Source: Leptolyngbyaceae cyanobacterium (GTDB lineage: Bacteria; Cyanobacteriota; Cyanobacteriia; Phormidesmidales; Phormidesmidaceae). From it: DNA of 64,000 bases. The notes under the pieces were generated by a model. It searched no databases. It was not told the DNA's origin and worked only from the letters and a program-made list of their open reading frames with translations. The position numbers and the translations under genes were made by a program. Location: positions 64,001-128,000 of the forward strand of contig CBDHHL010000049.1 of NCBI GenBank assembly GCA_965263355.1, written 5' to 3'. The number at the start of each line of letters is the position of its first letter. Position 1 is the stretch's first letter. Shown here in pieces: positions 15,725-57,492 of this stretch.

Positions 15725-15726
15725 TC

Positions 15727-40590: not shown

Positions 40591-40634
40591 AAAAACAGGC
40601 AATCTCTCATCAGAGATTGCCTGTTTTGGTTTTT
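40591..40634. terminator. Likely bidirectional intrinsic terminator
   Basis: AAAACAGGCAATCTCT-catc-AGAGATTGCCTGTTTT perfect stem between convergent genes. Confidence 0.85.
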
Positions 40635-40681: not shown

Positions 40682-42121
40682 CTATGGCGTCGGCGCCCAA
40701 ATTCCCTGGAAACCCAAGGGCACTACCTGGAGTAAGGCTAACCGACACACGGGGTCGTGATCTAAATGAGCGGCGTCAAAAATCCATAGTTCACTGCGAT
40801 CGCAATCACCATTGAAAACCACCGTCAATATCCAGCCTGGGTCTGTTGTATTGGGCCTTGGCGCATAGATTGGCAGCGAGGGCCAACAGTTCTCCTCAAA
40901 GTGGGTTTCTTTAAGAGTGCCTGTTTGATGGTCAAACTGGGCGATCGCCCCAGGCAAATCGTCACCACTGATCGAATCAGGTCGTTGCACCGATAGATAC
41001 GTATATCGCCAGGGTCTACCCACATCAGTGGGGGCAGTTGTGGGAAACTCACAGCCGCGATCAAAAAGTTGCTGCTTTTCAATTACCTTGGCTGATTGTG
41101 GATCAATCCGAATCTGCCAAAGAGTACCTGGAGCTGTTGTCTGGGTTTGGCCAGTAAGCACCTCCTGTAAAAACTGATTAATATCAGGAAAGTTTGGATA
41201 ACATACAATATTGGTGAGAATTGAGCCATCGCTATCGTCACAACTATTACCAAATCGCCATTGAAACCAGGTATCAGCCGTACTCCGACTGACCACCGAA
41301 AAGGTCTGACGATCAATCACCAAAACCTGTGTTCCTTTGTTAGGCTTCCAACTCAGCGCTTGACTAAAGCTTTTTTGCTTTGTGAGAAATGGCAATACAT
41401 TCAACGAAACCGGAGGGATGAAAAATATCAGATAGTTCTGAGTCAGGGCAAAATCATGGATCAGGGGTTGTTGCTTGAGACTGTGGTTAGCCTTTTGTAG
41501 TAACTTTCCTGTGGAACTATGACGATATAGATGTAACTGCGCCTGGGGGCCATAGCTGATGCCAAAATTAAAGATTTCTCCCGTCTCTGGATCGATTTTA
41601 GGCAGAACAGCATAGGGCGCATCTGCAGATAACCCCAATGACCTTTCTAGACCAACCGTTTTGAGTGTGTGCCGATGGAGCGCGTGGGGAGCACCAATCC
41701 CCCAAAGTGCCAGCAACCTATCTGGCAGGACTAGCAGTCCAGAATTAGCACTATTCTTGACGGGTAAACTAACCTGTTGCCACAATGAGCCCGACGGTGT
41801 TCGATCATATCCACCAAAAAGAAAGCGTCCGGCCTTTTCTTCCGCCTGGTAACCATCCGTTTGAACATAGCGATAAACACCCGTAGCCCCTGCGTCGGCA
41901 AATCGCACCCCCAACACAGCACCATCGCCGTCGAACCAGTGTCGAATACGTTCGCCAGAGCGTTCCAGCAGGCCAGCCCCATTTTGATATAAGCTTCCTC
42001 TCAATTCCAGGGGAATCTCTCCAGAAATCACATCAAGGGAAGCTGACGAAAACTCGACACCAGAATAAGCCATGAGGGCTTCCCAGGGCCGATTCTTTTG
42101 CAATTGGGTCGAAGGGATCAC
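40682..42121 (-). CDS. Carotenoid cleavage oxygenase (RPE65-family) homolog with degenerate iron site
   Basis: GEIPLELRGSLYQNG, HWFDGDG, IHDF, CEFP, ELWIFDA; AAGGAG upstream of the GTG start. Expected AHPK, WHF and GFHG read VLPK, WRF and GFQG. Confidence 0.88.
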   Translation of the reverse strand: MIPSTQLQKNRPWEALMAYSGVEFSSASLDVISGEIPLELRGSLYQNGAGLLERSGERIRHWFDGDGAVLGVRFADAGATGVYRYVQTDGYQAEEKAGRFLFGGYDRTPSGSLWQQVSLPVKNSANSGLLVLPDRLLALWGIGAPHALHRHTLKTVGLERSLGLSADAPYAVLPKIDPETGEIFNFGISYGPQAQLHLYRHSSTGKLLQKANHSLKQQPLIHDFALTQNYLIFFIPPVSLNVLPFLTKQKSFSQALSWKPNKGTQVLVIDRQTFSVVSRSTADTWFQWRFGNSCDDSDGSILTNIVCYPNFPDINQFLQEVLTGQTQTTAPGTLWQIRIDPQSAKVIEKQQLFDRGCEFPTTAPTDVGRPWRYTYLSVQRPDSISGDDLPGAIAQFDHQTGTLKETHFEENCWPSLPIYAPRPNTTDPGWILTVVFNGDCDRSELWIFDAAHLDHDPVCRLALLQVVPLGFQGIWAPTP

Positions 42122-43323: not shown

Positions 43324-46300
43324 TTGATGATTCATTCACCTGAAGGGCAATCAGTTTTAACTAATGATGCCCCTGCGATCGCAATTGTTGGCATGGGTTG
43401 TTATTATCCGGGTGCTAGTGATTTACGCACCCTGTGGGAAAATATTTTGTCTAAGCGACAACAGTTTCGTCGGTCCCTCGACAGCCGGTTGCCTATCGCA
43501 GAGTACTACGATCCAGATCCTGCTACCCCTGACAAAACCTATGGCGATCGGGCGGCAGTGATAGACGGATTTGCATTTGATTGGGTGAAACGGCGAATCC
43601 CAAAGATATCCTTTGAATCTACCGATGTGGTGCATTGGTTGGCCCTAGAAACAGCCCTAAAAGCAATTGAAGATGTTGGCTACACTCGAAAAACTGTTCC
43701 CACTGAACGCACTGGCTTTATTCTGGGGAACACCCTGACGGGAGAACAAACACGTTCCACTACAGTGCGTTTACGTTGGCCGTTTGTCAGGCGGGCTTTG
43801 CAGGCCGCTGCTGCTGCCAAGGGCATGACTGAGGCCACCATAGACGAGTTGGTCTCTTTTATGGAAGGTGTGTATAAATCTGCATTTACCCCCATTACCG
43901 AAGATTCTTTGGCAGGAGGCCTTTCCAATACGATTGCCGGACGAGTTTGCAATTTCTTTGATTTTAAGGGGGGAGGCTACACTGTCGATGGGGCCTGTTC
44001 ATCATCCCTGATTGCCATTGCCACCGCCGCCAATGCTCTGGTCAGTGGTGATCTAGACATGGCCCTGGCTGGAGGGGTCGATATTAGTCTCGACACCTTT
44101 GAACTCATTGGGTTTGCCAAGGTAGGGGCGTTAACAGCCCAAGATATGACGGTTTATGATCGGACCGCCAGTGGATTTATCCCAGGTGAAGGCTGTGGCT
44201 GTGTGGTCATGAAACGTCTGGAAGATGCCCGGCGGGATGGGGATTATGTCTATGCCGTTTTAAATGGCTGGGCCATTTCTTCGGATGGTAAGGGAGGGAT
44301 TACGGCACCGTCCAAGGTGGGACAGTCCAATGCCCTCCAGTGGGCCTACAATCGGGCGGGCTATAGTAGCCATCAACTCGACTTTATTGAAGGTCATGGG
44401 ACCGGCACACCTGTAGGTGACCGCACCGAAATTGAGGGCATCGCCTTAACATTAGCTGCTGATGGTAAGTTGTCTCCCCGCCAGGTAGGGTTGACATCTT
44501 TTAAATCTCTGGTGGGACATACCAAGGCGGCAGCGGGTGTGGGCGGATTTATCAAGACTGTTATAGCGGTCAATCAGCGTGTTTTGCCACCCACCTGTGG
44601 CTGTAAAGAGCCCAACCCTATCTTTGATACGGTGGCCCAAGCCGTTTACCCCATTCTGCAGGGAGAAGTGCGCAGCTCAGATGACACCCTGACAGCAGGA
44701 ATCTCGGCTATGGGGTTTGGTGGCATTAACTGCCATGCCACTATTACCTCCGGGGATACTCCTCGCGATCGCTTAAAGCCCACCCTGCCTGAACGCGCCC
44801 TGATGGTGTCCCATCAGGAAACAGAATTATTTATTTTTAGCGCTGGTACTATCCCTGAGCTGTTGTCACAGGTAAGCGCTGTAGCTAAGGATGCTAGGGA
44901 TATTAGTCTAGCGGAAATGGTGGATTTGGCGGCTCATCTTGCTAAGCAGATAACCCCTCAACAACCTATCAGGGCGGCTGTGATTGCCAATTCTCCTAAG
45001 ACGTTGGTGCAACGGCTGGCCCAATTACAAGATTTAGCCCAGGACCGTCCCTGTGGTCCGGGAACAGTCTTGACAGCCCACCAGGATGGTTTGCCCCAGG
45101 CGGTGTGGCTAAGTCATTCGGCCCGACGAGATCGCGTTGCCTTTCTCTTCCCAGGGCAGGGGTCACAACAGCTGAATATGGCCAGGGTTTTGGTGGAACG
45201 CCATGGCTGGGCTCAAGAGCTACTTCAGCAAACGGATCAATGGTTGGCGGAGATTGACTGTGAGCCCATTAGTACCTACATGTTCCGCTCGACTGATCGG
45301 GCGGCCAATACAGACGAATTAGGGAACTGGATGAAGTCCTTGACCCGAGCTGATATTGCCCCAGCGGCCATCTGTTTTGCGTCATTGTTATGGCACCAAT
45401 ATTTGACCCGATTGGGGATCACCCCCGTTGCGGTGGGGGGCCATAGCTTGGGAGAACTGTCGGCGTTCTATGCGGCGGGTGCCTACGATGCCAAAACCCT
45501 GATTCAGTTTGCAGCAGTGCGCGGTAAAGCGATGCTCTCACCTCAGGGACAAGCGGGCTCGATGGTGAGTTTGGGGTGCGATCTCACCACAGCAGAAAAT
45601 CTTTTGAAACAAATCTCAGGCTATGCCGTTGTCGCCAACATCAACCATCCCCAACAAACCGTAATATCGGGCCATGCCGAAAGTATCAAGCAAGTGCTCC
45701 TAGCAGCAGAACGAGACGTGTTATATGCCCGTCAGCTAGCCGTTGCCAATGCATTCCACTCAGCTCTGGTGGAAGAGGCAGCAGCCCAGGTAAAAGAAAA
45801 GGCACCCATTCCGACAGAACTAACGTCAATTAACATGCCCATTATCTCCGCTATGACAGGTCAGCCTGTCAATGTCGGACTCAAATTGCCTGATTACTTT
45901 GCCCAACAAATCACATCCCAGGTCGACTTTATTTCATTGATCAACACCATCAACCCCCTGTGTGATCTGATGGTCGAAGTGGGAACCGGAAAAGTATTAT
46001 CCAAATTGGCGCAAACCAATTTAGATGGACAACCTGACCGATGCTTTGCAGTGGAAGCAAAGGTGGGAGAAGCCCTGAGTTTGAATACGTTTCTAGGTAA
46101 CTTTTTTGTTCAAGGGGGTGCGATTAAATGGGACATAGTCTATGAAAATCGTATGGTGCGCCCTTACATTTCCCCGTCAGACCGGGTATTTATCGGCAAT
46201 CCCTGCGAAAATCCACTCCAGGTTCCAGAAACCAAACCATTTACCACTGCTCCCTATTCGGGGGCTGTTAACGGCAATACCATGCCTCAAAATGCCTATC

Positions 46301-46434
46301 AACTCTCTGATGATGAGTTAGTTAATGTGCTTTCAGATTACTTTACTCGCCGTGGAGACTTTCTGGCCGAAATTATCCAGGCAGATATGCAGTTTGTTCC
46401 CCTTTCACTAACAGTTAAGCAATATCATGAATAA
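43324..46434 (+). CDS. Enediyne-type (PksE-like) iterative PKS, N-terminal KS-AT part
   Basis: PksE-characteristic GNTLTGE..R....RLRWPFVRR and EDSLAGGLSNTIAGRVCN.FD..GGGYTVDGACSSSL; EGHGTGT; GHTKAAAG; AT GHSLG/NAFHS. The true start may be the ATG at 43327. Confidence 0.9.
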   Translation: MMIHSPEGQSVLTNDAPAIAIVGMGCYYPGASDLRTLWENILSKRQQFRRSLDSRLPIAEYYDPDPATPDKTYGDRAAVIDGFAFDWVKRRIPKISFESTDVVHWLALETALKAIEDVGYTRKTVPTERTGFILGNTLTGEQTRSTTVRLRWPFVRRALQAAAAAKGMTEATIDELVSFMEGVYKSAFTPITEDSLAGGLSNTIAGRVCNFFDFKGGGYTVDGACSSSLIAIATAANALVSGDLDMALAGGVDISLDTFELIGFAKVGALTAQDMTVYDRTASGFIPGEGCGCVVMKRLEDARRDGDYVYAVLNGWAISSDGKGGITAPSKVGQSNALQWAYNRAGYSSHQLDFIEGHGTGTPVGDRTEIEGIALTLAADGKLSPRQVGLTSFKSLVGHTKAAAGVGGFIKTVIAVNQRVLPPTCGCKEPNPIFDTVAQAVYPILQGEVRSSDDTLTAGISAMGFGGINCHATITSGDTPRDRLKPTLPERALMVSHQETELFIFSAGTIPELLSQVSAVAKDARDISLAEMVDLAAHLAKQITPQQPIRAAVIANSPKTLVQRLAQLQDLAQDRPCGPGTVLTAHQDGLPQAVWLSHSARRDRVAFLFPGQGSQQLNMARVLVERHGWAQELLQQTDQWLAEIDCEPISTYMFRSTDRAANTDELGNWMKSLTRADIAPAAICFASLLWHQYLTRLGITPVAVGGHSLGELSAFYAAGAYDAKTLIQFAAVRGKAMLSPQGQAGSMVSLGCDLTTAENLLKQISGYAVVANINHPQQTVISGHAESIKQVLLAAERDVLYARQLAVANAFHSALVEEAAAQVKEKAPIPTELTSINMPIISAMTGQPVNVGLKLPDYFAQQITSQVDFISLINTINPLCDLMVEVGTGKVLSKLAQTNLDGQPDRCFAVEAKVGEALSLNTFLGNFFVQGGAIKWDIVYENRMVRPYISPSDRVFIGNPCENPLQVPETKPFTTAPYSGAVNGNTMPQNAYQLSDDELVNVLSDYFTRRGDFLAEIIQADMQFVPLSLTVKQYHE

Positions 46435-49400
46435 TATCGATTCTGATCAAGAGATGCTGCAATTGCTCTCCCAATATTTTGCGACGAGGGGTAATTTTTT
46501 AGCCCAGGTGATTCGTGCTGATATGCGCACATTACCTGGGCATCAGTTGGCCCAGACCCATAGTGTGAATGGGAGCAATGGCTATAACAACAGCCATAAC
46601 GGCAATGGCTATAACCATCAATTCAACGGTTTATCGACCAATGGTGCGGTCAACAACGGTGCGGTCAACAACGGTGCGGCCAATAACGGTGTACCTCATG
46701 TTCAGGTCGTTACTCCCGTTGCCCCCTCTGTGGTACCTGAAGTAGTACCGAGCCAGACGACGACCCACGACCAGGTGGTAGGTACGTTAGTGAACCTGAT
46801 TGTTGAGAAAACTGGATATCCTCAAGAAAGTATTACATTAGACTCCCGGCTGCTGGATGACCTAAATTTAGATTCCATTAAAGCCGGGGAAGTAGTCGCA
46901 ACAGCAGCCAAGCAATTTGGCGTAACCGGGGACTTAGATCCAACGGCCCTAGCCAATGTCACCCTAGCAGAAGTAGCCCAGGCTATTTGCGACACCCTGC
47001 CCGACGCAGGCCCATTACCAGAGACATCTATCGGTAACAACAACTCTGCCCTGGTGCCCTCGGTTCCCGAGACGAAAAATGTCTCCCAAATGCTGCTGAA
47101 CTTGGTGGAAGAAAGCACTGGCTTTCCCAAATCATCCTTGGCGATGGACATGCGGTTGTTGGATGATTTAAACCTAGATTCCATTAAGGCAGCTGAGCTA
47201 GTGGGACGAGCCGCCAAACAATTGGGCATTGATGGTCAGCTAGACCCCTCCACCCTGGCCAATGCCACCTTAACCGACGTGGCGACTACCCTGGAGAATG
47301 CCGCCACCATGACGGTGCCTGCGCAAGCAGTGAATCCAGCCCTTAAGCCCGCTAAACCGACTGCGATCGCCTTGAGTAAATGGGTGAGAAACTTTGCCGT
47401 TGACTATATAGAAGCGGCCCTGCCCGAACGCACCCCTGAGACCTGGTCTAACGCCAAGGTGAGATTGGTGGCCGATACCTCAGACAGTCCCGTGGTCGCT
47501 GCCCTAGCTGCTCAAATCACCTCCCTGGGTGGAGAGATTGTTCACTCCACATTCACCGAGATTCTATCGGCAGCGGCGGAAACCGGCTATAGCCATATTA
47601 TTGCCGTTTTACCGCAGCCTGCCGAGGCCGCAGAATTATCGTCTCTGCCCCTAGCCGAAATGACCGTGCGGCTAAAGGGCATCACCACCCTGGCCGATGC
47701 CGCTAAGACAGCTTGTGTGGCCTACGTCCAGTTTGGCGGCGGCCAGTTTGGCACAGACTCAGCCCTGGCACCCGAATCCTGTTGTGCCGCCGCCTTTGCC
47801 CGCAGTCTGCATCTGGAGCGTCCCTCTTTGCGAGTTCGGGTGGTAGACCTGGCGTCTGCCCTGGTTCCAGAACAAAGTGCTGAGCTGGTAATCTCAGAGC
47901 TCTCAGGTGAAGAGACTATTGTCACAGCGGGCTACGATGCTGAACAAGTGCGTCGGGTTCCCCAGTCGCGACTGCACCAACCTGCCACCTACACCCCCCG
48001 TGAGCAAAGCTGGTCTAATACCGATGTAATTCTGGTGACCGGTGGTGCTAAGGGAATTACGGCGGAATGTGCCCTGGCCATTGCTGAATCGACAGGGGCG
48101 AAAATGGCCTTGGTGGGTCGCTCGGCAGCGCCTGCCCCCGGCAGCCAGAACGAGATTGCTAAAACGTTGGCTCGATATGGCCAGCAGGATCTGAAGGCTG
48201 AGTATTATTCCTGTGACATTGCCAATCCTGAGGCAGTGGTCACCTTGGTTGAGACTATCACTAAAGAGCTTGGCTCGGTAACTGGCGTTATCCATGGGGC
48301 TGGCTTAAATACCCCCCGTCGGGTAGAACAGGTGAGTTTAGAGGAGGCCCAAAAGGAAGCGGGTCCAAAATTAATCGGAGCGCAAAATCTTCTTCAGGCC
48401 CTCGCTGAGCATCCGCCCAAACTGTTCCTGGCCTTTACCTCCATCATTGGTATCACTGGCATGCCGGGCAACAGCTGGTATGGCTTTGCTAATGAATCTC
48501 TGGCGCTGTTGCTGCGCCGCTTTAATCATCTGCATCCAGAAACTCAGGTGGTCTCCCTGGCCTACAGCGTCTGGGATGAAGTGGGTATGGGGGCTCGCAT
48601 GGGCAGTGTGAAGAACCTGGAACGCATGGGCATTGGGGCCATATCGCCCGAGGAAGGGATTGAGCGCTGTGTCAGACTCTTCCATAATGATCCAGGTGTG
48701 CAGCAGGTGGCCATAGCTGCCCGTCTTGGTGGTTTAGATACCTGGATTCCCATCCCGCAGATTCCCATCGATCAGCTGCGATTTATGGAACGGGTCACCT
48801 ATCTTGAGCCCGGTGTAGAACTCACCGTGCGCACCCATCTCACCCAGGAGAGAGATCTCTATGTCAAGGATCATATCTGGCGAGGGTCCTACCTGTTTCC
48901 CACCGTCTTTGGTTTAGAAGCCATGGCCCAGGCGGCAGCAGTGATATCGGCAGACCCTGAGCCCACCATTGTGCGACTGGAAAATATCTCCCTGCGGCGT
49001 CCCATTGTGGTTAGTCCAGAGACTGGTGTTGAGATTGAAATCCACGCCGAGATGACCGAACTCAACAGCGCTGGTGAGAGGCAAATTAAAATCGGCATTC
49101 GTACTGAACAAACCGGCTTTAACACCGACCACTTCTCTGCCACCCTGGTATTGGGGGAGCGTCAACCCAGTCAAACCCTGAAGCATCAACTTGGTGCGCC
49201 ATTGGCCATTGAGCCCAAACGGGATCTCTACGGCAGTTTACTCTTCCAAGGGGAGCTGTTCCAGCAGATGGATAGTATCTACTCCCTCAGTCGAGAGCAA
49301 AGTCTGCTAGAATCCCATGCCCAAGCCTCAGCCGACTTAACGGAAACCGGCTTCCCCGTTGGCCAGGGCAGTGACTTCCTGCTAGGTGACCCCTATTTAC

Positions 49401-51484
49401 GGGATGTGTTGTTGCAATGTATGCAGCTGAATATTCCTCAAGATATCTGTCTGCCTGTTGAGATTGAACGTATAGACCTGTTTGCAAATCCGCTAACCGG
49501 AGCAGGGCGACGGATCATCACCGCAATTTTGAATGAAAAAATCGACAAAGAATACATTTGTGAGGTAGTTGCCACCGATGAGGTAGGCACCATCATTGAG
49601 CACTTGCACGGCTACCGATTACGGGTCCTAGAAGAACATCCCGAAAACCCCAGCGCAGTAGAATTGGCATCTCCGGAACGGCGGGACCAACAAACCTTAC
49701 AACAAACTCTGACAGTTGCCTGTAGTCAGGTGGGTGTGCAAACACCCACTGTCGCCCTGGGCTACGCCCCTGGACTGGGCGCACAAGCTAAGAAAAAGCG
49801 TCGGCAGATAGAAAAGGGACTTGTTGATCGGGTTATTAAGCGCACCCGTAATCTTGCACCAGACTCTGCGGCTCTCACATTTACTATCCGCACCCACAGC
49901 TCGGGTAAACCCTATCTGAGTGGACAGGCGTTTCAGGATCTGGAGGCTCCTCCAGAGCTTTCTCTGTCCCACGACGATCACTACTGTCTCTGTACGGTGG
50001 CTGATACTCCCCAGGGGTGTGATATCGAATCGGTTAACCATCGCTCTGAGGAAGATTGGGTAGCGCTGTTGAGCAATGCCCGCACCGACATTGTTAATCA
50101 GCTAGTGGCCTCGGGGGACGAGCGAGATGTGGCAGGTACTCGGGTGTGGTCAGCCTTAGAGGCGCTGCATAAGGCTTTTAATGGTATTGATTTCACCCTA
50201 TACCTTCAACAGCGTCAGGACAGCACCGTGTTATTGCATGCCCAAACAGACCAGGGAGATAACTATTATGTTTTGACCCTGCCAGTGCAGCTGACCCGCT
50301 ATCCACAGCGCATGGTGGCGATGGTAGTGAACCTGTCCCCTGAGACATCCACCGTGGGTTCGCCTGTAGGTTCGCCTGGTTCACTCCTGGTAGACGAACA
50401 GCCTGATCCCTATGGCATTATCCGTCCTGGAGAACATCGCACCCGCATCACGGAAGATGGTCCCCAAAATCAACCGGTGTACGAAAAACGGTTCCCAGTT
50501 ACCTTTAAGGAGGGGTGTAGCATAAGCCGTAAAGTAACGGTGTCACAGTATATCAGCTGGGTGGGCAAGATTCGAGAACTGCCATTGAGAAGCATGGCAG
50601 AACAGATGGTGCCCGATTTCCTAAGCGGTGAGTTTGGCATGGTGACTAATAGCGTTACCCTGCGAGTCTTAGGAGAGGCCACTACCTATGACACGATCCA
50701 GGCTCGGTGTTGGTTAGGCAATTTAGTCAACTCGTCCTTCTCCACATATATGGAATTCTGCAAAGTGTTACCCGATGACACCTTAGAACGGGTAGCCATG
50801 GCAGAAGTCCGGGCAACTTGGGTGCGGTTAATCAGCTATGGTATTCCGGCCCCTGAGCCCATGCCAAATTATCTGCAGGCCTATATGGATCAGTTCTGTG
50901 CCAAATTACCTGCCACCATCGATCTAAAAGAATCTCCCACCGATACCTTACAGGTGTTACCCGAAAGTCTATCGGCGATGCAACCAGGGGGTATCCAGTA
51001 TCAGTCTTCTGCAATCCCCCATGGTGATTTAGTGTTTACTGAGGTTTTCCAAACCACCTTAGAAGAGTCCAACCTGGTGGGGAATGTCTACTACGGCAAT
51101 TACTTCATCTGGCAAGGACGGGTGATCGATCTCTTCCTTTACTCCTTGGCCCCCAACTACTTTAGAGTGTCAACAGCGCAGGGAGAAGCGGTCTCACTTT
51201 ACAGCCATATGAACTTTATGCGAGAGGCCATGCCCTTTGATAAAATCCGCGTCAATCTCTATCTCCATAGCGTGACTGACTGTGGAGCAGTATTTAACTT
51301 CGAGTTTTTCCGAGAAATGCCCGGCGACAAGCAAGAAAAACTGCACACAGGACAGCAGGAAGTAATTTGGGCCAACCGTCAAGCCGACGGGTCCCCCATC
51401 CCTGCCTCCTGGCCTGAGGCAATTCGTAAAGCCCTAATTCAACAACAATCCACCTCAAACACCATGGGTTACGCCATGGCGTAG
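46427..51484 (+). CDS. PksE-like iterative PKS, C-terminal part: ACP-ACP-KR-DH-PPTase-hotdog TE x2
   Basis: LLDDLNLDSIK twice; KR VTGGAKGITAECA and WYGFANE; DH DHIWRGSYLFP; PPTase GKP, SLSH, GCDIE, WSALEALHKA; TE EESNLVGNVYYGNYFIWQGR preceded by a diverged copy (YISWVGKIRE). Confidence 0.9.
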   Translation: MNNIDSDQEMLQLLSQYFATRGNFLAQVIRADMRTLPGHQLAQTHSVNGSNGYNNSHNGNGYNHQFNGLSTNGAVNNGAVNNGAANNGVPHVQVVTPVAPSVVPEVVPSQTTTHDQVVGTLVNLIVEKTGYPQESITLDSRLLDDLNLDSIKAGEVVATAAKQFGVTGDLDPTALANVTLAEVAQAICDTLPDAGPLPETSIGNNNSALVPSVPETKNVSQMLLNLVEESTGFPKSSLAMDMRLLDDLNLDSIKAAELVGRAAKQLGIDGQLDPSTLANATLTDVATTLENAATMTVPAQAVNPALKPAKPTAIALSKWVRNFAVDYIEAALPERTPETWSNAKVRLVADTSDSPVVAALAAQITSLGGEIVHSTFTEILSAAAETGYSHIIAVLPQPAEAAELSSLPLAEMTVRLKGITTLADAAKTACVAYVQFGGGQFGTDSALAPESCCAAAFARSLHLERPSLRVRVVDLASALVPEQSAELVISELSGEETIVTAGYDAEQVRRVPQSRLHQPATYTPREQSWSNTDVILVTGGAKGITAECALAIAESTGAKMALVGRSAAPAPGSQNEIAKTLARYGQQDLKAEYYSCDIANPEAVVTLVETITKELGSVTGVIHGAGLNTPRRVEQVSLEEAQKEAGPKLIGAQNLLQALAEHPPKLFLAFTSIIGITGMPGNSWYGFANESLALLLRRFNHLHPETQVVSLAYSVWDEVGMGARMGSVKNLERMGIGAISPEEGIERCVRLFHNDPGVQQVAIAARLGGLDTWIPIPQIPIDQLRFMERVTYLEPGVELTVRTHLTQERDLYVKDHIWRGSYLFPTVFGLEAMAQAAAVISADPEPTIVRLENISLRRPIVVSPETGVEIEIHAEMTELNSAGERQIKIGIRTEQTGFNTDHFSATLVLGERQPSQTLKHQLGAPLAIEPKRDLYGSLLFQGELFQQMDSIYSLSREQSLLESHAQASADLTETGFPVGQGSDFLLGDPYLRDVLLQCMQLNIPQDICLPVEIERIDLFANPLTGAGRRIITAILNEKIDKEYICEVVATDEVGTIIEHLHGYRLRVLEEHPENPSAVELASPERRDQQTLQQTLTVACSQVGVQTPTVALGYAPGLGAQAKKKRRQIEKGLVDRVIKRTRNLAPDSAALTFTIRTHSSGKPYLSGQAFQDLEAPPELSLSHDDHYCLCTVADTPQGCDIESVNHRSEEDWVALLSNARTDIVNQLVASGDERDVAGTRVWSALEALHKAFNGIDFTLYLQQRQDSTVLLHAQTDQGDNYYVLTLPVQLTRYPQRMVAMVVNLSPETSTVGSPVGSPGSLLVDEQPDPYGIIRPGEHRTRITEDGPQNQPVYEKRFPVTFKEGCSISRKVTVSQYISWVGKIRELPLRSMAEQMVPDFLSGEFGMVTNSVTLRVLGEATTYDTIQARCWLGNLVNSSFSTYMEFCKVLPDDTLERVAMAEVRATWVRLISYGIPAPEPMPNYLQAYMDQFCAKLPATIDLKESPTDTLQVLPESLSAMQPGGIQYQSSAIPHGDLVFTEVFQTTLEESNLVGNVYYGNYFIWQGRVIDLFLYSLAPNYFRVSTAQGEAVSLYSHMNFMREAMPFDKIRVNLYLHSVTDCGAVFNFEFFREMPGDKQEKLHTGQQEVIWANRQADGSPIPASWPEAIRKALIQQQSTSNTMGYAMA

Positions 51485-51540
51485 GGTGTGTTTTAACGCA
51501 CCGTCCAGAGGCGTAGGGTGCGTTAAAACGCACCGTCCAG
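51478..51540 (+). repeat. Two tandem REP-like palindromic units (32-bp period)
   Basis: GGCGTAGGGTGTGTTTTAACGCACCGTCCAG and GGCGTAGGGTGCGTTAAAACGCACCGTCCAG; GTAG followed by a GGTGCGTT/AACGCACC hairpin. Confidence 0.8.
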
Positions 51541-51571
51541 TTAACAGCACTTAAATCAAAAAACAATACCC

Positions 51572-51802
51572 ATGACTCAGTCCAAAGGCACCTTAAGAAA
51601 CCAACTCCGCAATATCCATATCCTGGCCTCTGTTGCCTTGGGGGCATTTATCTATTCCCCCTGGCGCAACAGTGCTGGCTTTCCCATGATCATGGGGGCT
51701 GTTGTTTTTCCCATCCTGTCATTGACGGGGTTATGGATGTGGCAGGGACACCGTATCAGTCGCTGGTTTAAGAACAAAAAAAATACAACCCCAGCCGCTT
51801 AA
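51572..51802 (+). CDS. Small two-helix membrane protein
   Basis: Two hydrophobic segments with a His in the first and LTGLWMW in the second (reminiscent of PepSY-associated helices); operonic position. Confidence 0.75.
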   Translation: MTQSKGTLRNQLRNIHILASVALGAFIYSPWRNSAGFPMIMGAVVFPILSLTGLWMWQGHRISRWFKNKKNTTPAA

Positions 51803-51873
51803 GCGTGAGGCGTCGCTACCCCTCAGCATGATTCCATCGAGAGCTTTCTATCCTTTCACTATCCAACCTTAAG

Positions 51874-53700
51874 ATGACCACTATGCAATGTACTGAAACC
51901 TACGATGTTGTGATTATGGGGGCAGGATTTGCGGGTCTTTGTCAGGCTCGGCATCTCATGCTCAAAATTCCGAACATTAAGATTGCCCTGGTTGATCCGC
52001 GTTCTCCAGAAAGAAGTCCTGAGAAAGATTTGAAGATTGGAGAATCAACGGTGGAAGTTGCGGCGTTGTTTCTCGCTAAGGAACTGGGGCTATACGAATA
52101 TTTGGTAGAAAAACAAGTGCCAAAATTTGGCCTAAATTTTCACTGGCCGAAGACGCCTAAAAACACCCAGAAAATCGACGATTACTATCATATTTGGACC
52201 AATCGCCAGCCAGAAATTGCATCTTTCCAGGTGGATCGGTCTGAATTTGAACAGGACCTGCTCAAGATGAATATTGAGCAGGGTGCCCACTTTATTAATG
52301 GTCGGGTGGTCGATATCGATTTACCCCAGGGAGATGGCATTAATACCGTTAAAGTTCGGGCAAATGGTGAAATCCGAGACCTGAAAGCCAAGCATGTGAT
52401 TGATGCTGCTGGACGTAAGTTTTTGATTGGTAAAAAGACAGATAATCTGTTGTTTGGTCCCGAAAACCTCTACGGATTAAACAATGGCGCAGCCTGGGTC
52501 AGGGTAAAAAATGTTGACCGTGATCTTTTCCACGATGGCTACGATCCGGAGAATACTTCTGTCAGTCATTACTATGCCACCAATCACTACTTTGGTCATG
52601 GCCATTGGCTATGGATGATCCCCATCGACACAGAGAACCAACAACTGTCCATTGGGGTAATGCACCACCATGATGTGCTGGCGGCAAACCAGGTTAACAA
52701 GCAAGAGAAGTTCCTGGCGTTTTTGAAGGCCAATCATACGGTTTTGTACGATCTTATTAAAAGTGGTGAAACCGTTGACTTTCACTATTGGCCCAGGGCT
52801 GCCCACAAATCAAAGACAATGTTCTCCGAAGATAACTGGTATGTGATCGGGGATGCGGCCTGTATCTTTGATGCCTTTTATTCCCAGGGGTCCACGTTAA
52901 CCACCTTTGCCATTGAAGGGGCCACGGAGATTATTCGCTCAAAGCTGGCCCAGGAACCCGATGCTGAGCAAAAACGCGTTGCCTACAACAGCTTTACTCT
53001 GGGATATAACGACTTAGTCAACAGTCTTTATCGCGATCATGACAAACAGCTAGGTGATGCCAGCATTATGAGCTGGCGCATTTACTTTGAATACATTTGG
53101 TGGTTCGGTGTGGTGGTGCCGCTGTATATCGGCAAGTGGCATTTGGACATCGACGTTTGCAACAGAACCGTGAAGATCTTTAACGGTCTATCGAAGCTAT
53201 GGTTCGATGTGTACGATCAGTTTAATGAACTGATTGAGAAACAAGTCAATCTTGGGTTTTTGGACTGTTATCGGGCCGATCAATTAATTTTTGGCTATAC
53301 CACGGCTAAGCATTTTGACGATTTCACTCAGAATGCTAAGTATGAGCCCTTCCGAGTGAATGTGTTTGGCAGTTTGAAGAATGCCTGTTTTTATGCGATC
53401 GCATGGTTAATTAAGTTCAAATGGAAAGGCTTTGGCTTAGCAGGATTGCTCAGCCCTAAAACCATTGGCAATATTGCTTGGGTCTCATCGATTATGGGGC
53501 TAGCCGCTATGGGGGAAATTGTTTTCAAGATTAAAACCATGGGCACCCCTGACAATAGCGACATTGAGCAAATGCGCAAAGAGTTCAAGAGCTATCAGTA
53601 TATCCCTGAACTCCAACCCTCGCTCTTTGAAAAACGTAAGCCTGAAGAGTTATCTGCAGGGGCTGAAAACATCTCTTCAGCAGAACTGGTTAGGAATTAA
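51874..53700 (+). CDS. Flavin-dependent halogenase-like oxidoreductase 1
   Basis: GAGFAG, KIGEST, conserved Lys in PKFGLNF, WLWMIP (WxWxIP), GDAACIFDAFYSQG. Confidence 0.85.
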   Translation: MTTMQCTETYDVVIMGAGFAGLCQARHLMLKIPNIKIALVDPRSPERSPEKDLKIGESTVEVAALFLAKELGLYEYLVEKQVPKFGLNFHWPKTPKNTQKIDDYYHIWTNRQPEIASFQVDRSEFEQDLLKMNIEQGAHFINGRVVDIDLPQGDGINTVKVRANGEIRDLKAKHVIDAAGRKFLIGKKTDNLLFGPENLYGLNNGAAWVRVKNVDRDLFHDGYDPENTSVSHYYATNHYFGHGHWLWMIPIDTENQQLSIGVMHHHDVLAANQVNKQEKFLAFLKANHTVLYDLIKSGETVDFHYWPRAAHKSKTMFSEDNWYVIGDAACIFDAFYSQGSTLTTFAIEGATEIIRSKLAQEPDAEQKRVAYNSFTLGYNDLVNSLYRDHDKQLGDASIMSWRIYFEYIWWFGVVVPLYIGKWHLDIDVCNRTVKIFNGLSKLWFDVYDQFNELIEKQVNLGFLDCYRADQLIFGYTTAKHFDDFTQNAKYEPFRVNVFGSLKNACFYAIAWLIKFKWKGFGLAGLLSPKTIGNIAWVSSIMGLAAMGEIVFKIKTMGTPDNSDIEQMRKEFKSYQYIPELQPSLFEKRKPEELSAGAENISSAELVRN

Positions 53701-53824
53701 TTCACACTTGCACCTGCTTGCAGGCTAGCCGGTTCAAACCCATCGTTTTCAAGTTTTTCATCTTGTTTTCAAATAAACTTCCGTCGTTAAACATTTCACT
53801 TTCTATCGAGGGAAATCTCAAACT

Positions 53825-55666
53825 ATGACCAGCACGTTAATGCGAGAGACAACATATCACGAGACTAAAAACCATAACTACGACGTGGTGATCATAGGGG
53901 CAGGGTTTGCTGGTCTTTGTCAGGCTCGTCACCTGATGCTCAATATTCCTAATCTCAAGATTGCCCTCATCGATCCTCGCCCCATTGAGCGAGGTGATAA
54001 GGACCTCAAAATTGGTGAATCTACCATTGAAATTGCCGCCTTGTTTTTGAGTAAGGAACTGGGTCTGTATGAATATCTGGTGGAAAACCATGTTCCCAAA
54101 ATCGGCTTGAATTTCCACTGGCCAAAGGAGGGCGACAAGACCGAAAAACTTGAGGACTACTATCACATCTGGTCTAACCGTCAGGTATCGATTCCAGCGT
54201 TTCAAATGAATCGAGCTAAGTTAGAGCGTGATTTACTCAAGATGAATCAAGAGATGGGGGTAACATTCTATAACGGTCGCGCCAAAGATGTTGATCTTAC
54301 CCCTGGCGATGCAACTAAGCAGGTCACGGTGAAACTCAAGGGTGAAGAGGTTACCCTCAACTGTAAGCATGTGATCGATGCAGCCGGTCGTAACTTTATC
54401 ATTGGCCGTAAGAAAGATAACGTACTGTCTGGCCCAGAGAATCTCTTAGGTCTGAATAATGGCTCTGCTTGGATGCGGGTTAAAGGCGTAGATCGCTCTA
54501 TTTTTCATGACGGGTACGACCCCAACAATGCCTCCACCAGTCACTATTACGCCACCAATCACTACTTTGGCCATGGTCACTGGCTATGGATGATTCCCAC
54601 CGATAGCAAGACCATGGAAGTGTCCATCGGCATGATGCACCACCACGATCAGCTGCCCGCTGAAGAGGTTAGGACCCAGGAGAAGTTTACTAACTTCTTA
54701 AAGCACAACCACACGATGCTTTATAGGCTGATCGAAAGTGGCGAAGCCATTGACTTTAACTATCGTCCTAAGGTGGCCCACAAGAGTAAGGAGATGTTCT
54801 CCAAAGATAACTGGTATGTGATTGGAGACGCGGCCTATATCTTTGATGCGTTCTACTCCTACGGCACGTCCACGGTAGCGCTGGCGATTGAAAGTGTCAC
54901 CGAAATTATCCGCTCCAAGGTAGCTCAAGAACCCGAAACAGAAGCAAAGCGAGATGCCTTTAACAAGTTCAACCTGATCTTTGCCCTCACCGTTAACTAT
55001 CTCTATCGCGATCACGGTAAGCAGTTGGGCCATGCCAGTGTGATGAGCTGGCGCATCTATTGGGAATATATGTGGTGGTTCGGCATGATGGTGCCCATGT
55101 ATGTCGGTAAGTGGCATATTGACCAAACCTTTATTGACATTTTCTTAGGCATCAACAAGAAAATTGACGGCATGTTCTCCCATATCAACAAGCAGTTCAA
55201 TGAACTGGTGGAACGGGATGCCAACCTGGGGTTAATGGATTGTTATCGGGCAGACCAGCTGATCTGGGGCTACTATACTCCCAAACAGTTTGATAATTAT
55301 CTGGCCAATACAAAGCTGGAACCCCTTCACTGTAATGTCTTTGCCTGCATCAAAAACACCTGTTTCTTTGTGGCAGTGTGGTACGCCAAGTTCCTTTGGA
55401 AGGGCTTTGGTCTCAAGGGCGTGCTGAACCCTAAAAACCTTTACTATCTGATGGTGCTGATGGGCTTTACCATTCAGTCGGCGATTGGTGAGATGGTCTA
55501 CAAGTTTAAGACTAGAGGTCTTTCCAACAATAGTCAGATTACTCAGATGCGTGAGGAGTTTAAGTCTTATCAATACAAGCCTGAACTCCGCTCCTGGATG
55601 ACAGATGTGGCTGCCAAAACTCAGACGATGGCAGACAAAGAATCTGCAGAATACGCGTTCAAATAA
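53825..55666 (+). CDS. Flavin-dependent halogenase-like oxidoreductase 2
   Basis: GAGFAG, KIGEST, PKIGLNF, WLWMIP, GDAAYIFDAFYSYG; clear paralog of its neighbours. Confidence 0.85.
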   Translation: MTSTLMRETTYHETKNHNYDVVIIGAGFAGLCQARHLMLNIPNLKIALIDPRPIERGDKDLKIGESTIEIAALFLSKELGLYEYLVENHVPKIGLNFHWPKEGDKTEKLEDYYHIWSNRQVSIPAFQMNRAKLERDLLKMNQEMGVTFYNGRAKDVDLTPGDATKQVTVKLKGEEVTLNCKHVIDAAGRNFIIGRKKDNVLSGPENLLGLNNGSAWMRVKGVDRSIFHDGYDPNNASTSHYYATNHYFGHGHWLWMIPTDSKTMEVSIGMMHHHDQLPAEEVRTQEKFTNFLKHNHTMLYRLIESGEAIDFNYRPKVAHKSKEMFSKDNWYVIGDAAYIFDAFYSYGTSTVALAIESVTEIIRSKVAQEPETEAKRDAFNKFNLIFALTVNYLYRDHGKQLGHASVMSWRIYWEYMWWFGMMVPMYVGKWHIDQTFIDIFLGINKKIDGMFSHINKQFNELVERDANLGLMDCYRADQLIWGYYTPKQFDNYLANTKLEPLHCNVFACIKNTCFFVAVWYAKFLWKGFGLKGVLNPKNLYYLMVLMGFTIQSAIGEMVYKFKTRGLSNNSQITQMREEFKSYQYKPELRSWMTDVAAKTQTMADKESAEYAFK

Positions 55667-55707
55667 GCCCTTTTTATACCACTAATACCGATTCCCTAGA
55701 CAACTCC

Positions 55708-57492
55708 ATGAATACAACACCAGTACTTGAGAAACCCTCTACTAAACCGGGCCAACATGATTACGATGTAGTCATCATGGGCGCAGGCTTTGCCGGAATT
55801 TGTCAGGCTAGACATCTGGCCCTCAATATTCCTAACATCAAAGTTGCTCTCGTTGACTTTCGCCCCGAGGAGAGAGACGTCAAGGATATGAAAATTGGCG
55901 AATCCATGGTGGAAGTTGCCGCTCTTTTTGTTTGTAAAGAGCTGGGTCTGCATGAGTACATGATCGAAAATCACACCCCTAAGGCAGGGCTTAATTTCCA
56001 CTGGCCCAAGGAACCAGAAGATACGGACCAGCTGGATGATTATTACCATGTTTGGTCCAATCGTCAGACTGCGATCGCATCTTTCCATATGAACCGGGCC
56101 AAATTTGAGCGCGATGTGCTGGCCATGACCCGCGAGATGGGTGTAGACTTTTACAACGGTCGCGTCATAGATGTGGAGTTGCCCGCAGGCGACAGTCTTA
56201 ACACCGTTAAAGTGAAGCTTAACGGTGAGTTGATGGCACTTACTGCCAAGCATGTAGTGGATGCTGCGGGTCGACAATGCATGATAGGCAAGAAAAAAGA
56301 CAATGTGATTAGCGATCCTGAAAATTTATATGGCCTCAAAACAGGATCTGCTTGGGTTCGGGTCAAGAATATTGACCGTAAGCTGTTTGACGAAGGATAT
56401 AATCCTGACCGTGCCACTAGCAGCAGTTACTATGCCACCAATCACTTCTTTGGTCAGGGGCACTGGCTGTGGATGATTCCCACCGATCGCGAATCGATGG
56501 AACTTTCCATTGGCATCATCCATCACCATGATGTGATTCCATCTAATTCAATTAATTCCAAAGAAAAGTTTTACGCGTTTCTAAAGTCCAATCACAAGAT
56601 TCTTTCCAATTTAGTAGAATCCGGTGAAGACATTGATTTCCGTTATCGTCGTAGCATTGCCTACAAGAGTAAGGAAATGTTCTCTCCCGATAACTGGTAT
56701 GTACTAGGGGATGCTGCTTACATCTTTGATGCTTTTTACTCCTATGGCACCACCACCGTTGCCTTTGCAGTAGAAGGTGTCACCGAAATTATCCGGGCCA
56801 AGCTAGCGGGCGAATCTGACGCTGAGACCAAGCGTGATGCCTACAATAAATTTAATCTCGCCTACGCCGAAAATGTAAACCACCTGATCCGCTACCATGA
56901 CAAGCAACTGGGGCATGCCAGTGTGATGAGCTGGCGGGTTTACTTTGAGTATATGTGGTGGTTTGGTGTCCATGTACCGATGTATGTGGGTAAGTGGCAC
57001 CTCAATCTTACCTTTGTCAACAAGTTCCTGAAGCTGTTGCCAGCCAATATGAAGGGACTGTTTGTTGATGTGTATGGACAGTTTAATCAGATTGTGGATC
57101 GCGGTGGCAATATTGGCTTAATGGATGCTTATCGGGCCGATCAGCTCATTGGTGATTATAGTCCCCTGAATCACTTCGATCATTTTTTGGAGAATTCAAA
57201 GCTTGAACCATTACGCTGTAATGTCTTTGCGGGCATGAAGCATGCCTACTTCTTTATTGCCATTTGGTATTTGAAGTTCCAATGGATGGGCTTTGGTCTG
57301 CTAGGGGTGCTACATCCCCGCCATGTATACCATTTCTTCCGTCTGTTGAGTCTGTCATTCCAGGCAATTATTGGTGAGAAAATCTATCAGTCCAAGACCA
57401 AGCACTTGCCTGAAAATACAGATACCGAGAAAATGCGCGAGGAATTTAAACAGTATACGTATCAACCAGTCTGGCAGTCTGGTAAGGGATAA
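55708..57492 (+). CDS. Flavin-dependent halogenase-like oxidoreductase 3
   Basis: GAGFAG, KIGESM, PKAGLNF, WLWMIP, GDAAYIFDAFYSYG. Confidence 0.85.
   Translation: MNTTPVLEKPSTKPGQHDYDVVIMGAGFAGICQARHLALNIPNIKVALVDFRPEERDVKDMKIGESMVEVAALFVCKELGLHEYMIENHTPKAGLNFHWPKEPEDTDQLDDYYHVWSNRQTAIASFHMNRAKFERDVLAMTREMGVDFYNGRVIDVELPAGDSLNTVKVKLNGELMALTAKHVVDAAGRQCMIGKKKDNVISDPENLYGLKTGSAWVRVKNIDRKLFDEGYNPDRATSSSYYATNHFFGQGHWLWMIPTDRESMELSIGIIHHHDVIPSNSINSKEKFYAFLKSNHKILSNLVESGEDIDFRYRRSIAYKSKEMFSPDNWYVLGDAAYIFDAFYSYGTTTVAFAVEGVTEIIRAKLAGESDAETKRDAYNKFNLAYAENVNHLIRYHDKQLGHASVMSWRVYFEYMWWFGVHVPMYVGKWHLNLTFVNKFLKLLPANMKGLFVDVYGQFNQIVDRGGNIGLMDAYRADQLIGDYSPLNHFDHFLENSKLEPLRCNVFAGMKHAYFFIAIWYLKFQWMGFGLLGVLHPRHVYHFFRLLSLSFQAIIGEKIYQSKTKHLPENTDTEKMREEFKQYTYQPVWQSGKG

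What the first reader, a model, noticed from the sequence alone, without database searches (positions are those of the whole stretch)
43324..57492. Split, self-sufficient enediyne-type PKS operon with three halogenases and no visible enediyne tailoring cassette
Seen: PksE-signature KS-AT in one gene; ACP-ACP-KR-DH-PPTase plus an E10-like thioesterase in the next; then three paralogous WxWxIP flavoenzymes. Known: actinomycete PksE is one KS-AT-ACP-KR-DH-PPTase polypeptide that makes a linear polyene with a separate hotdog TE (E10) and is accompanied by E3/E4/E5 in enediyne clusters. I recognise no E3/E4/E5 here. Inference: this is a compact pathway to a (poly)halogenated polyene-derived compound. 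I recall an orphan PksE-like cluster with three halogenases described in Microcystis aeruginosa PCC 7806, so the cluster type may be known but chemically uncharacterised; this recollection needs verifying.
Basis: partly seen in the sequence, partly recalled or inferred. Interest (0 to 1): 0.85.

Follow-up and report, generated by a model that had tools for sequence, protein, structure and literature searches.

The report
Orphan cyanobacterial polyene-halogenating gene cluster
This cyanobacterial operon pairs the polyene-making synthase of enediyne antibiotic pathways with three halogenase-type enzymes instead of the enediyne warhead genes; the cluster type was noted in Microcystis in 2008, but what it makes still appears to be unknown.

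Summary
The two PKS genes are 40% and 30% identical to C-1027 SgcE and keep every catalytic motif checked. The KS falls in the PksE clade, away from PfaA/HglE, on a branch separate from the E3/E4/E5-linked PksEs. Three flavoproteins keep GxGxxG, WxWxIP and the lysine that aligns with PltA's.

Corrections:
- The thioesterase is a fused tandem double hotdog.
- A conserved 76-aa membrane ORF was missed.
- There is no flavin reductase, so 'self-sufficient' is overstated.
- The split is real but varies among relatives.
- A divergent carotenoid-oxygenase homologue (3 of 4 iron histidines lost) and a rare secreted domain probably belong to the cluster.

E3/E4/E5 are absent from the window, and no intact cassette was found in 23 related genomes. 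The window's own genome could not be searched. The Microcystis PCC 7806 recollection is correct (PMC2442094), and my searches found no product.

Best reading (0.58): an iterative PKS builds a conjugated polyene on its carrier domains, the three enzymes halogenate it, and the double hotdog releases a small halogenated polyene-derived lipid. This is a new member of a known but chemically orphan cluster family, compact enough to test directly.

The parts
43324..46434 (+). PKS subunit 1: PksE-type KS (about 43375-44604; Cys in DGACSS, both His) and malonyl-type AT (about 45142-45981; GHSLG, AFHS)
   Evidence: 39.7% to SgcE over 1020 columns; KS 51.5% to SgcE; dN 0.12 / dS 2.4 against the closest relative
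46306..46392 (+). C-terminal copy of a ~30-aa helix duplicated across the split (candidate docking element)
   Evidence: docking is inferred, not tested
46427..51484 (+). PKS subunit 2: helix copy (46442-46528), ACP1 (46784-46987), ACP2 (47087-47302), KR (48029-48577), DH (48818-49645), PPTase (about 49934-50233), tandem hotdog thioesterase; no ER domain
   Evidence: (30.3% to SgcE over 1066 columns)
50468..50827 (+). hotdog domain 1: keeps the Arg-Glu pair of the E10 'GRCRE' motif (as GKIRE) but has lost the NxxGNVYY motif
   Evidence: Arg in 78 of 81 didomains
51029..51436 (+). hotdog domain 2: keeps the E10 NLVGNVYYxNY motif; the Arg is replaced by Ile here
   Evidence: Asn 81 of 81, Tyr 80 of 81, Arg only 40 of 81; DynE7 Z 12.1, rmsd 1.9
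51572..51802 (+).
   Evidence: 13 other loci from 11 genomes or records, one genome with an in-frame stop; dN 0.16 / dS 2.2; atlas look-alikes all unnamed
51874..53700 (+). flavin-dependent halogenase-type enzyme 1 (608 aa)
53825..55666 (+). flavin-dependent halogenase-type enzyme 2 (613 aa)
55708..57492 (+). flavin-dependent halogenase-type enzyme 3 (594 aa); best solved relative is PltA
   Evidence: (PltA E 1.5e-20)
40682..42121 (-). divergently placed carotenoid-cleavage-oxygenase homologue; probable cluster member, probably catalytically dead (ACO H183->L, H304->R, H484->Q; only H238 kept)
   Evidence: 56% to the in-operon copy of Gloeothece PCC 7822; sister to it, SH-aLRT 94, shared His->Arg
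59254..59898 (+). rare secreted domain of unknown family inside the 985-aa RTX protein (58033-60990); found at these clusters; candidate product-binding protein
61132..63999 (-). AcrB-type RND transporter fragment fused to TPRs, open at the window end; possible exporter (loosely linked)
   Evidence: relatives at the clusters of L025 and G062

Best explanation
The operon makes a small halogenated, polyene-derived lipid that is not an enediyne. The KS-AT subunit and the ACP2-KR-DH-PPTase-TE2 subunit assemble into one PksE-type iterative synthase, probably through the helix duplicated at the split (inferred). The in-cis PPTase primes both ACPs (domains shown, activity inferred from SgcE). Repeated malonyl extension, ketoreduction and dehydration without enoyl reduction give a conjugated polyene thioester (established for PksE). 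The three paralogous flavoenzymes use FADH2 from a reductase encoded elsewhere, O2 and chloride or bromide to halogenate the chain at distinct positions, most likely while it is ACP-bound (inferred). The fused double hotdog acts as a covalent E10 dimer with one composite active site, Arg-Glu from domain 1 and Asn/Tyr from domain 2. It releases the chain, possibly with decarboxylation as in the heptaene route (inferred). The product is exported, and may be carried by the cluster-linked secreted domain (speculative).
For: All catalytic motifs are present and align to SgcE; the KS is in the PksE clade. PksE/TE pairs make a polyene (PMC9992847, abstract and passages). GxGxxG, the PltA-aligned Lys and WxWxxP are invariant in 69 of 69 family members. 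In a sample of 301 cyanobacterial genomes, 9 of the 10 with this halogenase clade (49% identity or more) carry it within about 10 kb of a PksE KS. All 9 genomes with a KS at 63% or more carry it (4 of the 9 were already in my first set). All six operon genes are under strong purifying selection (dN/dS about 0.03-0.07). The double hotdog folds as two hotdogs (pLDDT 87) with complementary residue conservation. Precedent: the aurantoside polyene is proposed to be built iteratively and chlorinated by two halogenases (PMC9802089, passages; proposed there, not shown). Sister clusters without a thioesterase carry a C=C-cleaving oxygenase plus aldehyde dehydrogenase, which fits a polyene intermediate.
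Against: No product or activity is known. The Fx.Px.Sx.G motif said to mark active halogenases (PMC8407142) is only partly met: S and G are kept, but F is Ile in 59 of 69 and P is Ala in 58 of 69. Similarity to characterised halogenases is remote (Pfam E about 1e-11 to 1e-14; all NCBIfam scores far under cut-off). Most such enzymes act on electron-rich aromatics. Hotdog 2 keeps its Arg in 40 of 81 relatives, so the division of labour is not universal. The halogenase clade also occurs without PksE (L020, L026, L027 and beside a modular PKS in L089). Halogenase number varies from 1 to 3, and chain length cannot be predicted.
Confidence: 0.58

Rival explanations
1. Same enzymes, but the halogenated product is cyclic or aromatic. 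The PKS skips reduction in late rounds, or hotdog 1 acts as a cyclase or product template, giving a pyrone or phenol with a polyene tail that the three enzymes halogenate on the ring.
For: Electron-rich rings are the usual substrates of flavin-dependent halogenases (PMC8407142); the best solved relatives include PltA and ChlB4; double-hotdog folds include product-template domains (Z about 12-13).
Against: KR and DH catalytic residues are intact; the didomain matches acyl-ACP thioesterases far better (Z 22-23.5) and both halves resemble SgcE10 in sequence; no cyclase or aromatase gene is common to the clusters.
Confidence: 0.15
2. The three flavoproteins are not halogenases but oxygenases, reductases or isomerases that turn the polyene into an epoxide, polyol or reduced lipid.
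For: They also hit geranylgeranyl-reductase, LodB, QhpG and lycopene-cyclase models weakly; the Fx.Px.Sx.G motif is altered.
Against: WxWxIP and the PltA-aligned Lys are invariant or nearly so; all 12 solved-structure hits are halogenases or halogenase-annotated.
Confidence: 0.11
3. Halogenation is cryptic: halide is added to the polyene and then eliminated to give alkynes, so the halogenases stand in for the E3/E4/E5 step and the product is an ene-yne or polyyne.
For: Cryptic halogenation to an alkyne is known for BesD, and an iodinated intermediate occurs in anthraquinone-fused enediyne pathways. DUF1702 (E3-like) genes sit beside these halogenases in 4 of 28 cluster groups.
Against: No lyase or desaturase is encoded in this operon; DUF1702 is absent here and from 22 of 23 genomes searched.
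Confidence: 0.1
4. It is a true enediyne pathway with E3/E4/E5 encoded elsewhere in the genome.
For: The window's genome could not be searched; a preprint predicted enediynes for a Microcystis cluster with an enediyne-type synthase gene (10.1101/2022.10.12.511943); complete cassettes exist in other cyanobacteria.
Against: No full-length E4 in 23 of 23 related genomes, DUF1702 in 1 of 23, and only weak E5 paralogues in 11 of 23 (controls rang). The cassette-linked KSs form a separate branch.
Confidence: 0.03
5. It is a PUFA or heterocyst-glycolipid type synthase.
For: TIGR02813 PfaA is among the top NCBIfam hits, and there are tandem ACPs.
Against: Scores of 390 and 217 bits are far below the 1010 cut-off; the KS lies outside the PfaA/HglE clade; no PfaB/C/D or ER genes are present.
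Confidence: 0.01

Closest known systems
Orphan 'PKSI iterative' (enediyne-type) cluster of Microcystis aeruginosa PCC 7806 (PMC2442094; PMC3741299)
   Same: PksE-like iterative PKS plus three halogenases as described in print. Microcystis loci fetched here have the same KS-AT | ACP2-KR-DH-PPT-TE2 split, the small ORF in three of four, and 53-65% identity for the three full-type loci.
   Different: I did not compare with the PCC 7806 sequence itself. The four Microcystis loci fetched show two halogenases each, plus a ~125-aa unknown protein and a DevBCA exporter (and an alpha/beta hydrolase in three of four), which the window lacks near the operon.
Gloeothece verrucosa PCC 7822 plasmid cluster (NC_014533.1, L032/L055)
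   Same: Identical core order: PKS1, PKS2, small ORF, three halogenase-type genes, at 53-69% identity. It also has the carotenoid-oxygenase homologue and the secreted domain.
   Different: There the oxygenase lies in the operon and keeps three histidines; DevBCA and a hydrolase follow. I found no described product.
Minimal enediyne PKS cassette E3/E4/E5/E/E10 (SgcE/SgcE10 of C-1027; CalE8/CalE7; DynE8/DynE7)
   Same: KS-AT-ACP-KR-DH-PPTase order, catalytic residues, hotdog thioesterase.
   Different: Two polypeptides, two ACPs, fused tandem thioesterase, no E3/E4/E5, halogenases added; KS on the sister branch.
Aurantoside pathway AtsF + AtsD/AtsE (PMC9802089)
   Same: Proposed iterative polyene assembly from malonate with several halogenases.
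   Different: AtsF is part of a PKS-NRPS line ending in a glycosylated tetramic acid; no sequence comparison was made here.
Carrier-dependent flavin halogenases PltA, ChlB4, CndH, and CmlS
   Same: GxGxxG, WxWxIP, aligned Lys.
   Different: About 600 aa, remote similarity, altered Fx.Px.Sx.G motif, no aromatic substrate pathway in the operon.

Membership tests
Enediyne PKS (PksE) enzyme family | KS in the PksE clade, apart from PfaA/HglE | tested here: met
   (SH-aLRT 99, quick trees); AU p=0.046
Enediyne PKS (PksE) enzyme family | KS-AT-ACP-KR-DH-PPTase order, no ER, catalytic residues intact | tested here: met
   spread over two genes
Enediyne PKS (PksE) enzyme family | E10-type hotdog thioesterase | tested here: met
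   fused tandem pair, both halves hit SgcE10
Enediyne PKS (PksE) enzyme family | makes pentadecaheptaene or a related polyene | not testable with these tools
   needs expression and LC-MS/UV
Enediyne biosynthetic cluster (minimal cassette) | E3, E4 and E5 beside the PKS (PMC4480864) | tested here: not met
   none in the 64-kb window, controls rang
Enediyne biosynthetic cluster (minimal cassette) | E3/E4/E5 elsewhere in the genome | tested here: inconclusive
   own genome not held; in 23 related genomes DUF1702 in 1, full-length E4 in 0, only weak E5 paralogues in 11; many of these assemblies are incomplete
Flavin-dependent halogenases | GxGxxG and WxWxIP | tested here: met
   GxGxxG and W-x-W-x-x-P in 69 of 69, Ile in 66 of 69
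Flavin-dependent halogenases | conserved active-site lysine | tested here: met
   Lys92 of enzyme 3 is invariant in 69 of 69 and aligns with the second Lys of PltA's PKKFG; that this is PltA's catalytic lysine is recalled
Flavin-dependent halogenases | Fx.Px.Sx.G tunnel motif | tested here: inconclusive
   D, S, G kept; F->I in 59 of 69 and P->A in 58 of 69; variants are allowed per PMC8407142
Flavin-dependent halogenases | halide incorporation | not testable with these tools
   needs an assay
PUFA/Hgl synthases | PfaA model over its cut-off; KS in the PfaA/HglE clade; PfaB/C/D partners | tested here: not met
Orphan cyanobacterial PksE + halogenase clusters (Microcystis type) | PksE-like PKS adjacent to 2-3 paralogous halogenases | tested here: met
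   direct comparison with PCC 7806 not done
Carotenoid cleavage oxygenases (gene 40682-42121) | four iron-binding histidines | tested here: not met
   1 of 4 kept against Synechocystis-type ACO H183/H238/H304/H484; the ligand role of these residues is recalled

The most novel reading that the evidence does not exclude
A whole sister branch of the enediyne synthases has been rewired in cyanobacteria. Flavin halogenases act directly on the PksE polyene, giving either an undescribed class of polyhalogenated polyenes or, through cryptic halogenation and elimination, alkynes without E4/E5. A dedicated secreted domain binds the reactive product, as apoproteins do for 9-membered enediynes. Carriers include Microcystis, Aetokthonos and Prochloron, and Moorena has the halogenase.
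Probability: 0.3. Interest if true: 0.85.

Novelty: new member of a known kind. Interest (0 to 1): 0.55.

Why it matters
PksE-like synthases outside actinomycetes are common, and none of the papers I read ties one to a compound (PMC10308959). Some authors read them as enediyne producers. This analysis separates cyanobacterial PksEs into true cassette-linked ones and a halogenase-linked branch, and shows the latter lacks the warhead genes. The cluster type has been orphan since 2008 and occurs in bloom-forming and symbiotic cyanobacteria, so its product could be an overlooked natural organohalogen. This copy is among the most compact: a self-priming, self-releasing PKS, a small membrane protein and three enzymes in 14 kb. 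That makes the question directly testable. It could also give flavin halogenases that act on polyenes, and a naturally fused thioesterase dimer for studying E10 catalysis.

Tried and rejected
Whole-genome search of the host: no genome is held.

Single-sequence AlphaFold of the thioesterase region failed (pLDDT 32); it was repeated with a 34-row alignment.

The careful KS tree did not finish; only quick trees with SH-aLRT were obtained, and some long branches meet. For one search I dropped one poorly aligned row (L064) and thinned near-duplicates, and added three rows.

PF07593 rang nowhere, including controls, so it was replaced by SgcE4 with positive controls.

No complex prediction of the two helix copies was obtained, so docking is untested.

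The structure papers on SgcE10 and CalE7 and the enediyne neighbourhood-network paper are not held, so thioesterase catalytic roles are recalled.

The ESM Atlas gave nothing for the secreted domain (score 0.76) and only unnamed look-alikes for the small ORF. PDB gave nothing for the secreted domain.

The promoter scan was at chance level (22 found against 28 expected). No RNA holder was listed.

Rejected:
- Frameshift artefact at the split: the same 8-nt overlap occurs in L001, and a contig from another sample spans it without gaps.
- Membership of the upstream PKS/NRPS genes (199-36396): they have their own thioesterase and exporter, and their best match in any fetched locus is 49%.
- Linkage of the oxygenase in the three closest relatives: it is not beside their clusters.

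The tally double-counts truncated halogenases in overlapping loci, so I use it only for presence.

Literature searches found no product; subscription papers and supplements were not seen and could hold one.
Full report
Observation. Gene 1 is KS-AT; gene 2 has two ACPs, KR, DH, a weakly detected PPTase and a hotdog thioesterase; the last three genes hit the Trp_halogenase family. I fetched the C-1027 cassette from plasmid SGLP1. Gene 1 is 39.7% identical to SgcE over 1020 columns and gene 2 is 30.3% over 1066. ACP Ser, KR Tyr, DH His and the PPTase D-x-E and W-x3-E-x3-K residues align one to one with SgcE, and the KS Cys-His-His and AT GHSLG/AFHS motifs are intact. No enoyl reductase is present. 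All six operon genes show dN 0.04-0.16 against dS 1.3-2.4 versus the closest relative, so this is a maintained pathway.

Corrections to the anatomy. The thioesterase is double. SgcE10 hits residues 1545-1670 (32%) and also 1348-1467 (24%, E 1e-5). An AlphaFold model on a 34-row alignment gives two hotdog folds (pLDDT 87, pTM 0.88) whose best structural matches are double-hotdog acyl-ACP thioesterases (Z 23.5), with DynE7 matching the second half (Z 12.1, rmsd 1.9). Stand-alone E10 proteins carry one motif, NLVGNVYYxNY...GRCRE. Across 81 distinct didomains, the first hotdog keeps the Arg (78 of 81) and Glu/Asp (78 of 81) but not the Asn-Val-Tyr-Tyr part. The second keeps Asn (81 of 81) and Tyr (80 of 81) but has Arg in only 40 of 81 and Ile in this window. 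I read this as a fused dimer with one composite active site. That the Arg is catalytic in CalE7 and DynE7 is recalled; those papers were not held. A 76-aa hydrophobic ORF at 51572-51802 was missed; tblastn finds it in 13 other loci from 11 genomes or records. No SgcE6-type flavin reductase was found in the window or any cyanobacterial locus held.

The split. It is real: L001 has the same 8-nt overlap, and a contig from a second sample spans 43021-46680 with 2 differences and no gaps. It is also unremarkable. Relatives are fully fused (L002, L003, L019, L017), split after the KS (L004), split as here (L001, L005-L008, L010, L012, L015, L018, L032, L077), split three ways (L009, L016, L021, L022), or interrupted by an aminotransferase (L025). 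A 30-residue helix is present at the end of gene 1 and again at the start of gene 2 in the split forms examined. Among 120 long homologues, 96 have it, 88 once and 8 twice; it was not detected in SgcE, L002 or L019. One position is Glu in 12 of 13 C-terminal copies and Gln in 11 of 12 N-terminal copies. A docking role is my inference; no complex prediction was obtained.

Phylogeny. In a 58-row and a 34-row KS tree (quick IQ-TREE, SH-aLRT only), the window's KS lies in a PksE clade with support 99, apart from PfaA/HglE-like and modular KSs. That clade divides into the E3/E4/E5-linked synthases (actinomycete, Sinorhizobium and two cyanobacterial ones; 91) and a branch holding the window (97). 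An AU test rejects joining the window's branch to PfaA/HglE only marginally (p 0.046, 18 rows). The PfaA model scores 390 and 217 bits against a cut-off of 1010.

Enediyne cassette. The five-gene cassette E10/E/E5/E4/E3 defines enediyne clusters (PMC4480864, passages). SgcE2-E5 find nothing in the window while control loci ring. The host genome is not held, so I searched 23 cyanobacterial genomes that carry the halogenases, 20 of which showed the KS. DUF1702 was found in 1 of 23; SgcE4 gave two short weak hits and no full-length one; SgcE5 gave weak hits in 11 of 23 (E 4.5e-9 or worse), none in a cluster. Two Streptomyces plasmid controls rang in all three searches. Many of these assemblies are drafts. 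Against a flat 'no E3 ever': DUF1702 genes do sit in 4 of 28 halogenase cluster groups, three of them a variant whose PKS lacks the thioesterase and which adds a carotenoid oxygenase and an aldehyde dehydrogenase.

The flavoenzymes. Their best solved relative is PltA (E 1.5e-20), and the 12 PDB hits are halogenases or so annotated. In 69 full-length family members GxGxxG, the PltA-aligned Lys and W-x-W-x-x-P are invariant. The Fx.Px.Sx.G motif described in PMC8407142 (passages) is only partly met (F->I in 59, P->A in 58 of 69). Each window paralogue has its own orthologue in three close relatives, so the three were kept as distinct lineages, which fits distinct target positions. A GTDB scan gave 28 loci, 22 with a PksE-type PKS in view. 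In a sample of 301 cyanobacterial genomes, 10 had the clade at 49% identity or more, and 9 of these had a PksE KS within about 10 kb; the tenth lies beside a modular PKS. All 9 genomes with a KS at 63% or more had the halogenases. Only the top 4-5 candidates per genome were scored, and 4 of the 9 were already known to me.

The Gloeothece PCC 7822 plasmid has the same core followed by a carotenoid oxygenase gene. The divergent gene at 40682-42121 is 56% identical to it, more than to any match in the 301 genomes (best 53%). The two group together (SH-aLRT 94) and share a His-to-Arg change absent from the other 15 rows. The window's copy keeps only H238 of ACO's four histidines, so it is probably a dead or repurposed cluster gene; the three closest relatives lack it at the cluster. 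Downstream, residues 408-622 of the RTX protein form a domain with no Pfam, PDB or Atlas match. It occurs once each in 9 of 25 genomes, always at the cluster (8 of the 9 were in the alignment). It was found in 4 of 301 sampled genomes, 3 strongly, the one new strong case lying 21 kb from the PKS. Only 14 representatives among 1.84 billion score E<=1e-30. A role as product carrier is speculation. Many relatives also have a DevBCA exporter (17 of 28 groups) and an unknown ~125-aa protein (14 of 28); neither lies at this operon.

Mechanism. PksE/TE pairs make pentadecaheptaene through an ACP-bound 3-hydroxy-hexaenoate, with hydrolysis, decarboxylation and dehydration proposed for the TE (PMC9992847, abstract and passages). 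I therefore favour an ACP-bound polyene, halogenated up to three times by the flavoenzymes with FADH2 supplied in trans, and released by the fused thioesterase (0.58). Domains and linkage are shown; chemistry, timing, halide and chain length are inferred. The aurantoside proposal (PMC9802089, passages) is the nearest precedent. Rivals are a halogenated ring product (0.15), non-halogenating flavoenzymes (0.11), cryptic halogenation to alkynes (0.10), a true enediyne with genes in trans (0.03) and a PUFA-type lipid (0.01).

What is known. PMC2442094 (passages) describes the PCC 7806 iterative PKS similar to PksE with three halogenases. PMC3741299 (passages) lists it as orphan, 15-16 kb, in 2 of 12 genomes. 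PMC4139720 (table passage) counts reads for it in a bloom. PMC4247773 (passages) places a cyanobacterial enediyne KS clade beside the PUFA clades. A preprint (10.1101/2022.10.12.511943, passages) predicts enediynes for a Microcystis cluster with an enediyne-type gene. PMC10308959 (passages) notes that non-actinobacterial enediyne KSs have no known products. PMC8341276, PMC3107222, PMC11264947, PMC13626215 and 10.1101/2024.01.29.577497 were seen as passages and add nothing decisive. Ten searches found no product; subscription papers and supplements were not seen. I did not align the PCC 7806 cluster itself, and the four Microcystis loci I hold show two halogenases, so identity with it is inferred. 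Earlier scan notes describe related PksE variants; they are leads, not support.

Verdict. A real, maintained operon and a new member of a known but chemically orphan family. The details I did not find in the papers read are the composite double thioesterase, the duplicated helix at the split, the small membrane protein, the His-less oxygenase and the cluster-linked secreted domain. Interest 0.55.

Noticed in passing
window 199-36396: A separate hybrid cluster: two fatty-acid desaturases, a two-module reducing PKS, PKS-NRPS, NRPS, PKS-TE and an MFS exporter; best match in any fetched locus is 49%.
   Followed up: partly
window 61132-63999 (-): AcrB-type transporter running into a TPR region in one frame; the TPR part matched no other fetched locus, while the AcrB part has relatives at the clusters of L025 and G062.
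   Followed up: partly
window 37721-40552 and 58033-60990: Two large secreted RTX/Ig-repeat proteins flank the operon and share a ~95-aa domain (one copy in the first, two in the second). Short RTX proteins sit in 6 of 28 related cluster groups.
   Followed up: partly
L082 (G092) 1309-17899; L083 (G131) 4987-16172: Complete E3/E4/E5/E/E10 enediyne cassettes in two cyanobacterial genomes, with no halogenase in the stretch; their KSs group with actinomycete PksE.
   Followed up: partly
L035/L036 (Anabaena minutissima), L086/L087, L088: Variant cluster: PksE without thioesterase, two halogenases, aldehyde dehydrogenase, intact carotenoid oxygenase and two DUF1702 genes; suggests oxidative cleavage of the polyene as the release step and links E3-like proteins to halogenases.
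   Followed up: partly
L025 3-8112: The PKS is cut into KS-AT, ACP and KR-DH-PPTase genes with a class I/II aminotransferase inserted and no hotdog motifs detected.
   Followed up: no
L037, L038, L077/L078: In the three closest relatives a second, divergent cluster (single-module reducing PKS, aminotransferase, dehydrogenase, DUF2141) lies just upstream of the PksE; it is absent from the window.
   Followed up: no
L006 13891-14277 and relatives: An unknown ~125-aa protein with a conserved GIPIYCW-like motif sits beside the halogenases in 14 of 28 cluster groups; no Pfam or NCBIfam hit; absent from the window.
   Followed up: partly
L034 4021-14140: A full E3/E4/E5/E/E10 cassette on an unannotated Sinorhizobium meliloti pSymA record.
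   Followed up: no
L020, L026, L027, L089: Members of the same halogenase clade without a PksE in view: alone, in two non-cyanobacterial MAGs, and beside a modular PKS.
   Followed up: no
window 40592-40627; 42100-43300: A 16-pair hairpin between the convergent RTX and oxygenase genes, and an AT-rich 1.2-kb divergent intergenic region with short tandem repeats.
   Followed up: no
P0055, P0062, P0063, P0068, P0070, P0084: PksE homologues at 65-69% KS identity occur outside cyanobacteria (Thermoflavimicrobium, Laceyella, Derxia, Ca. Methanoperedens); 59 of 109 PksE-type long hits carry the tandem hotdog.
   Followed up: partly
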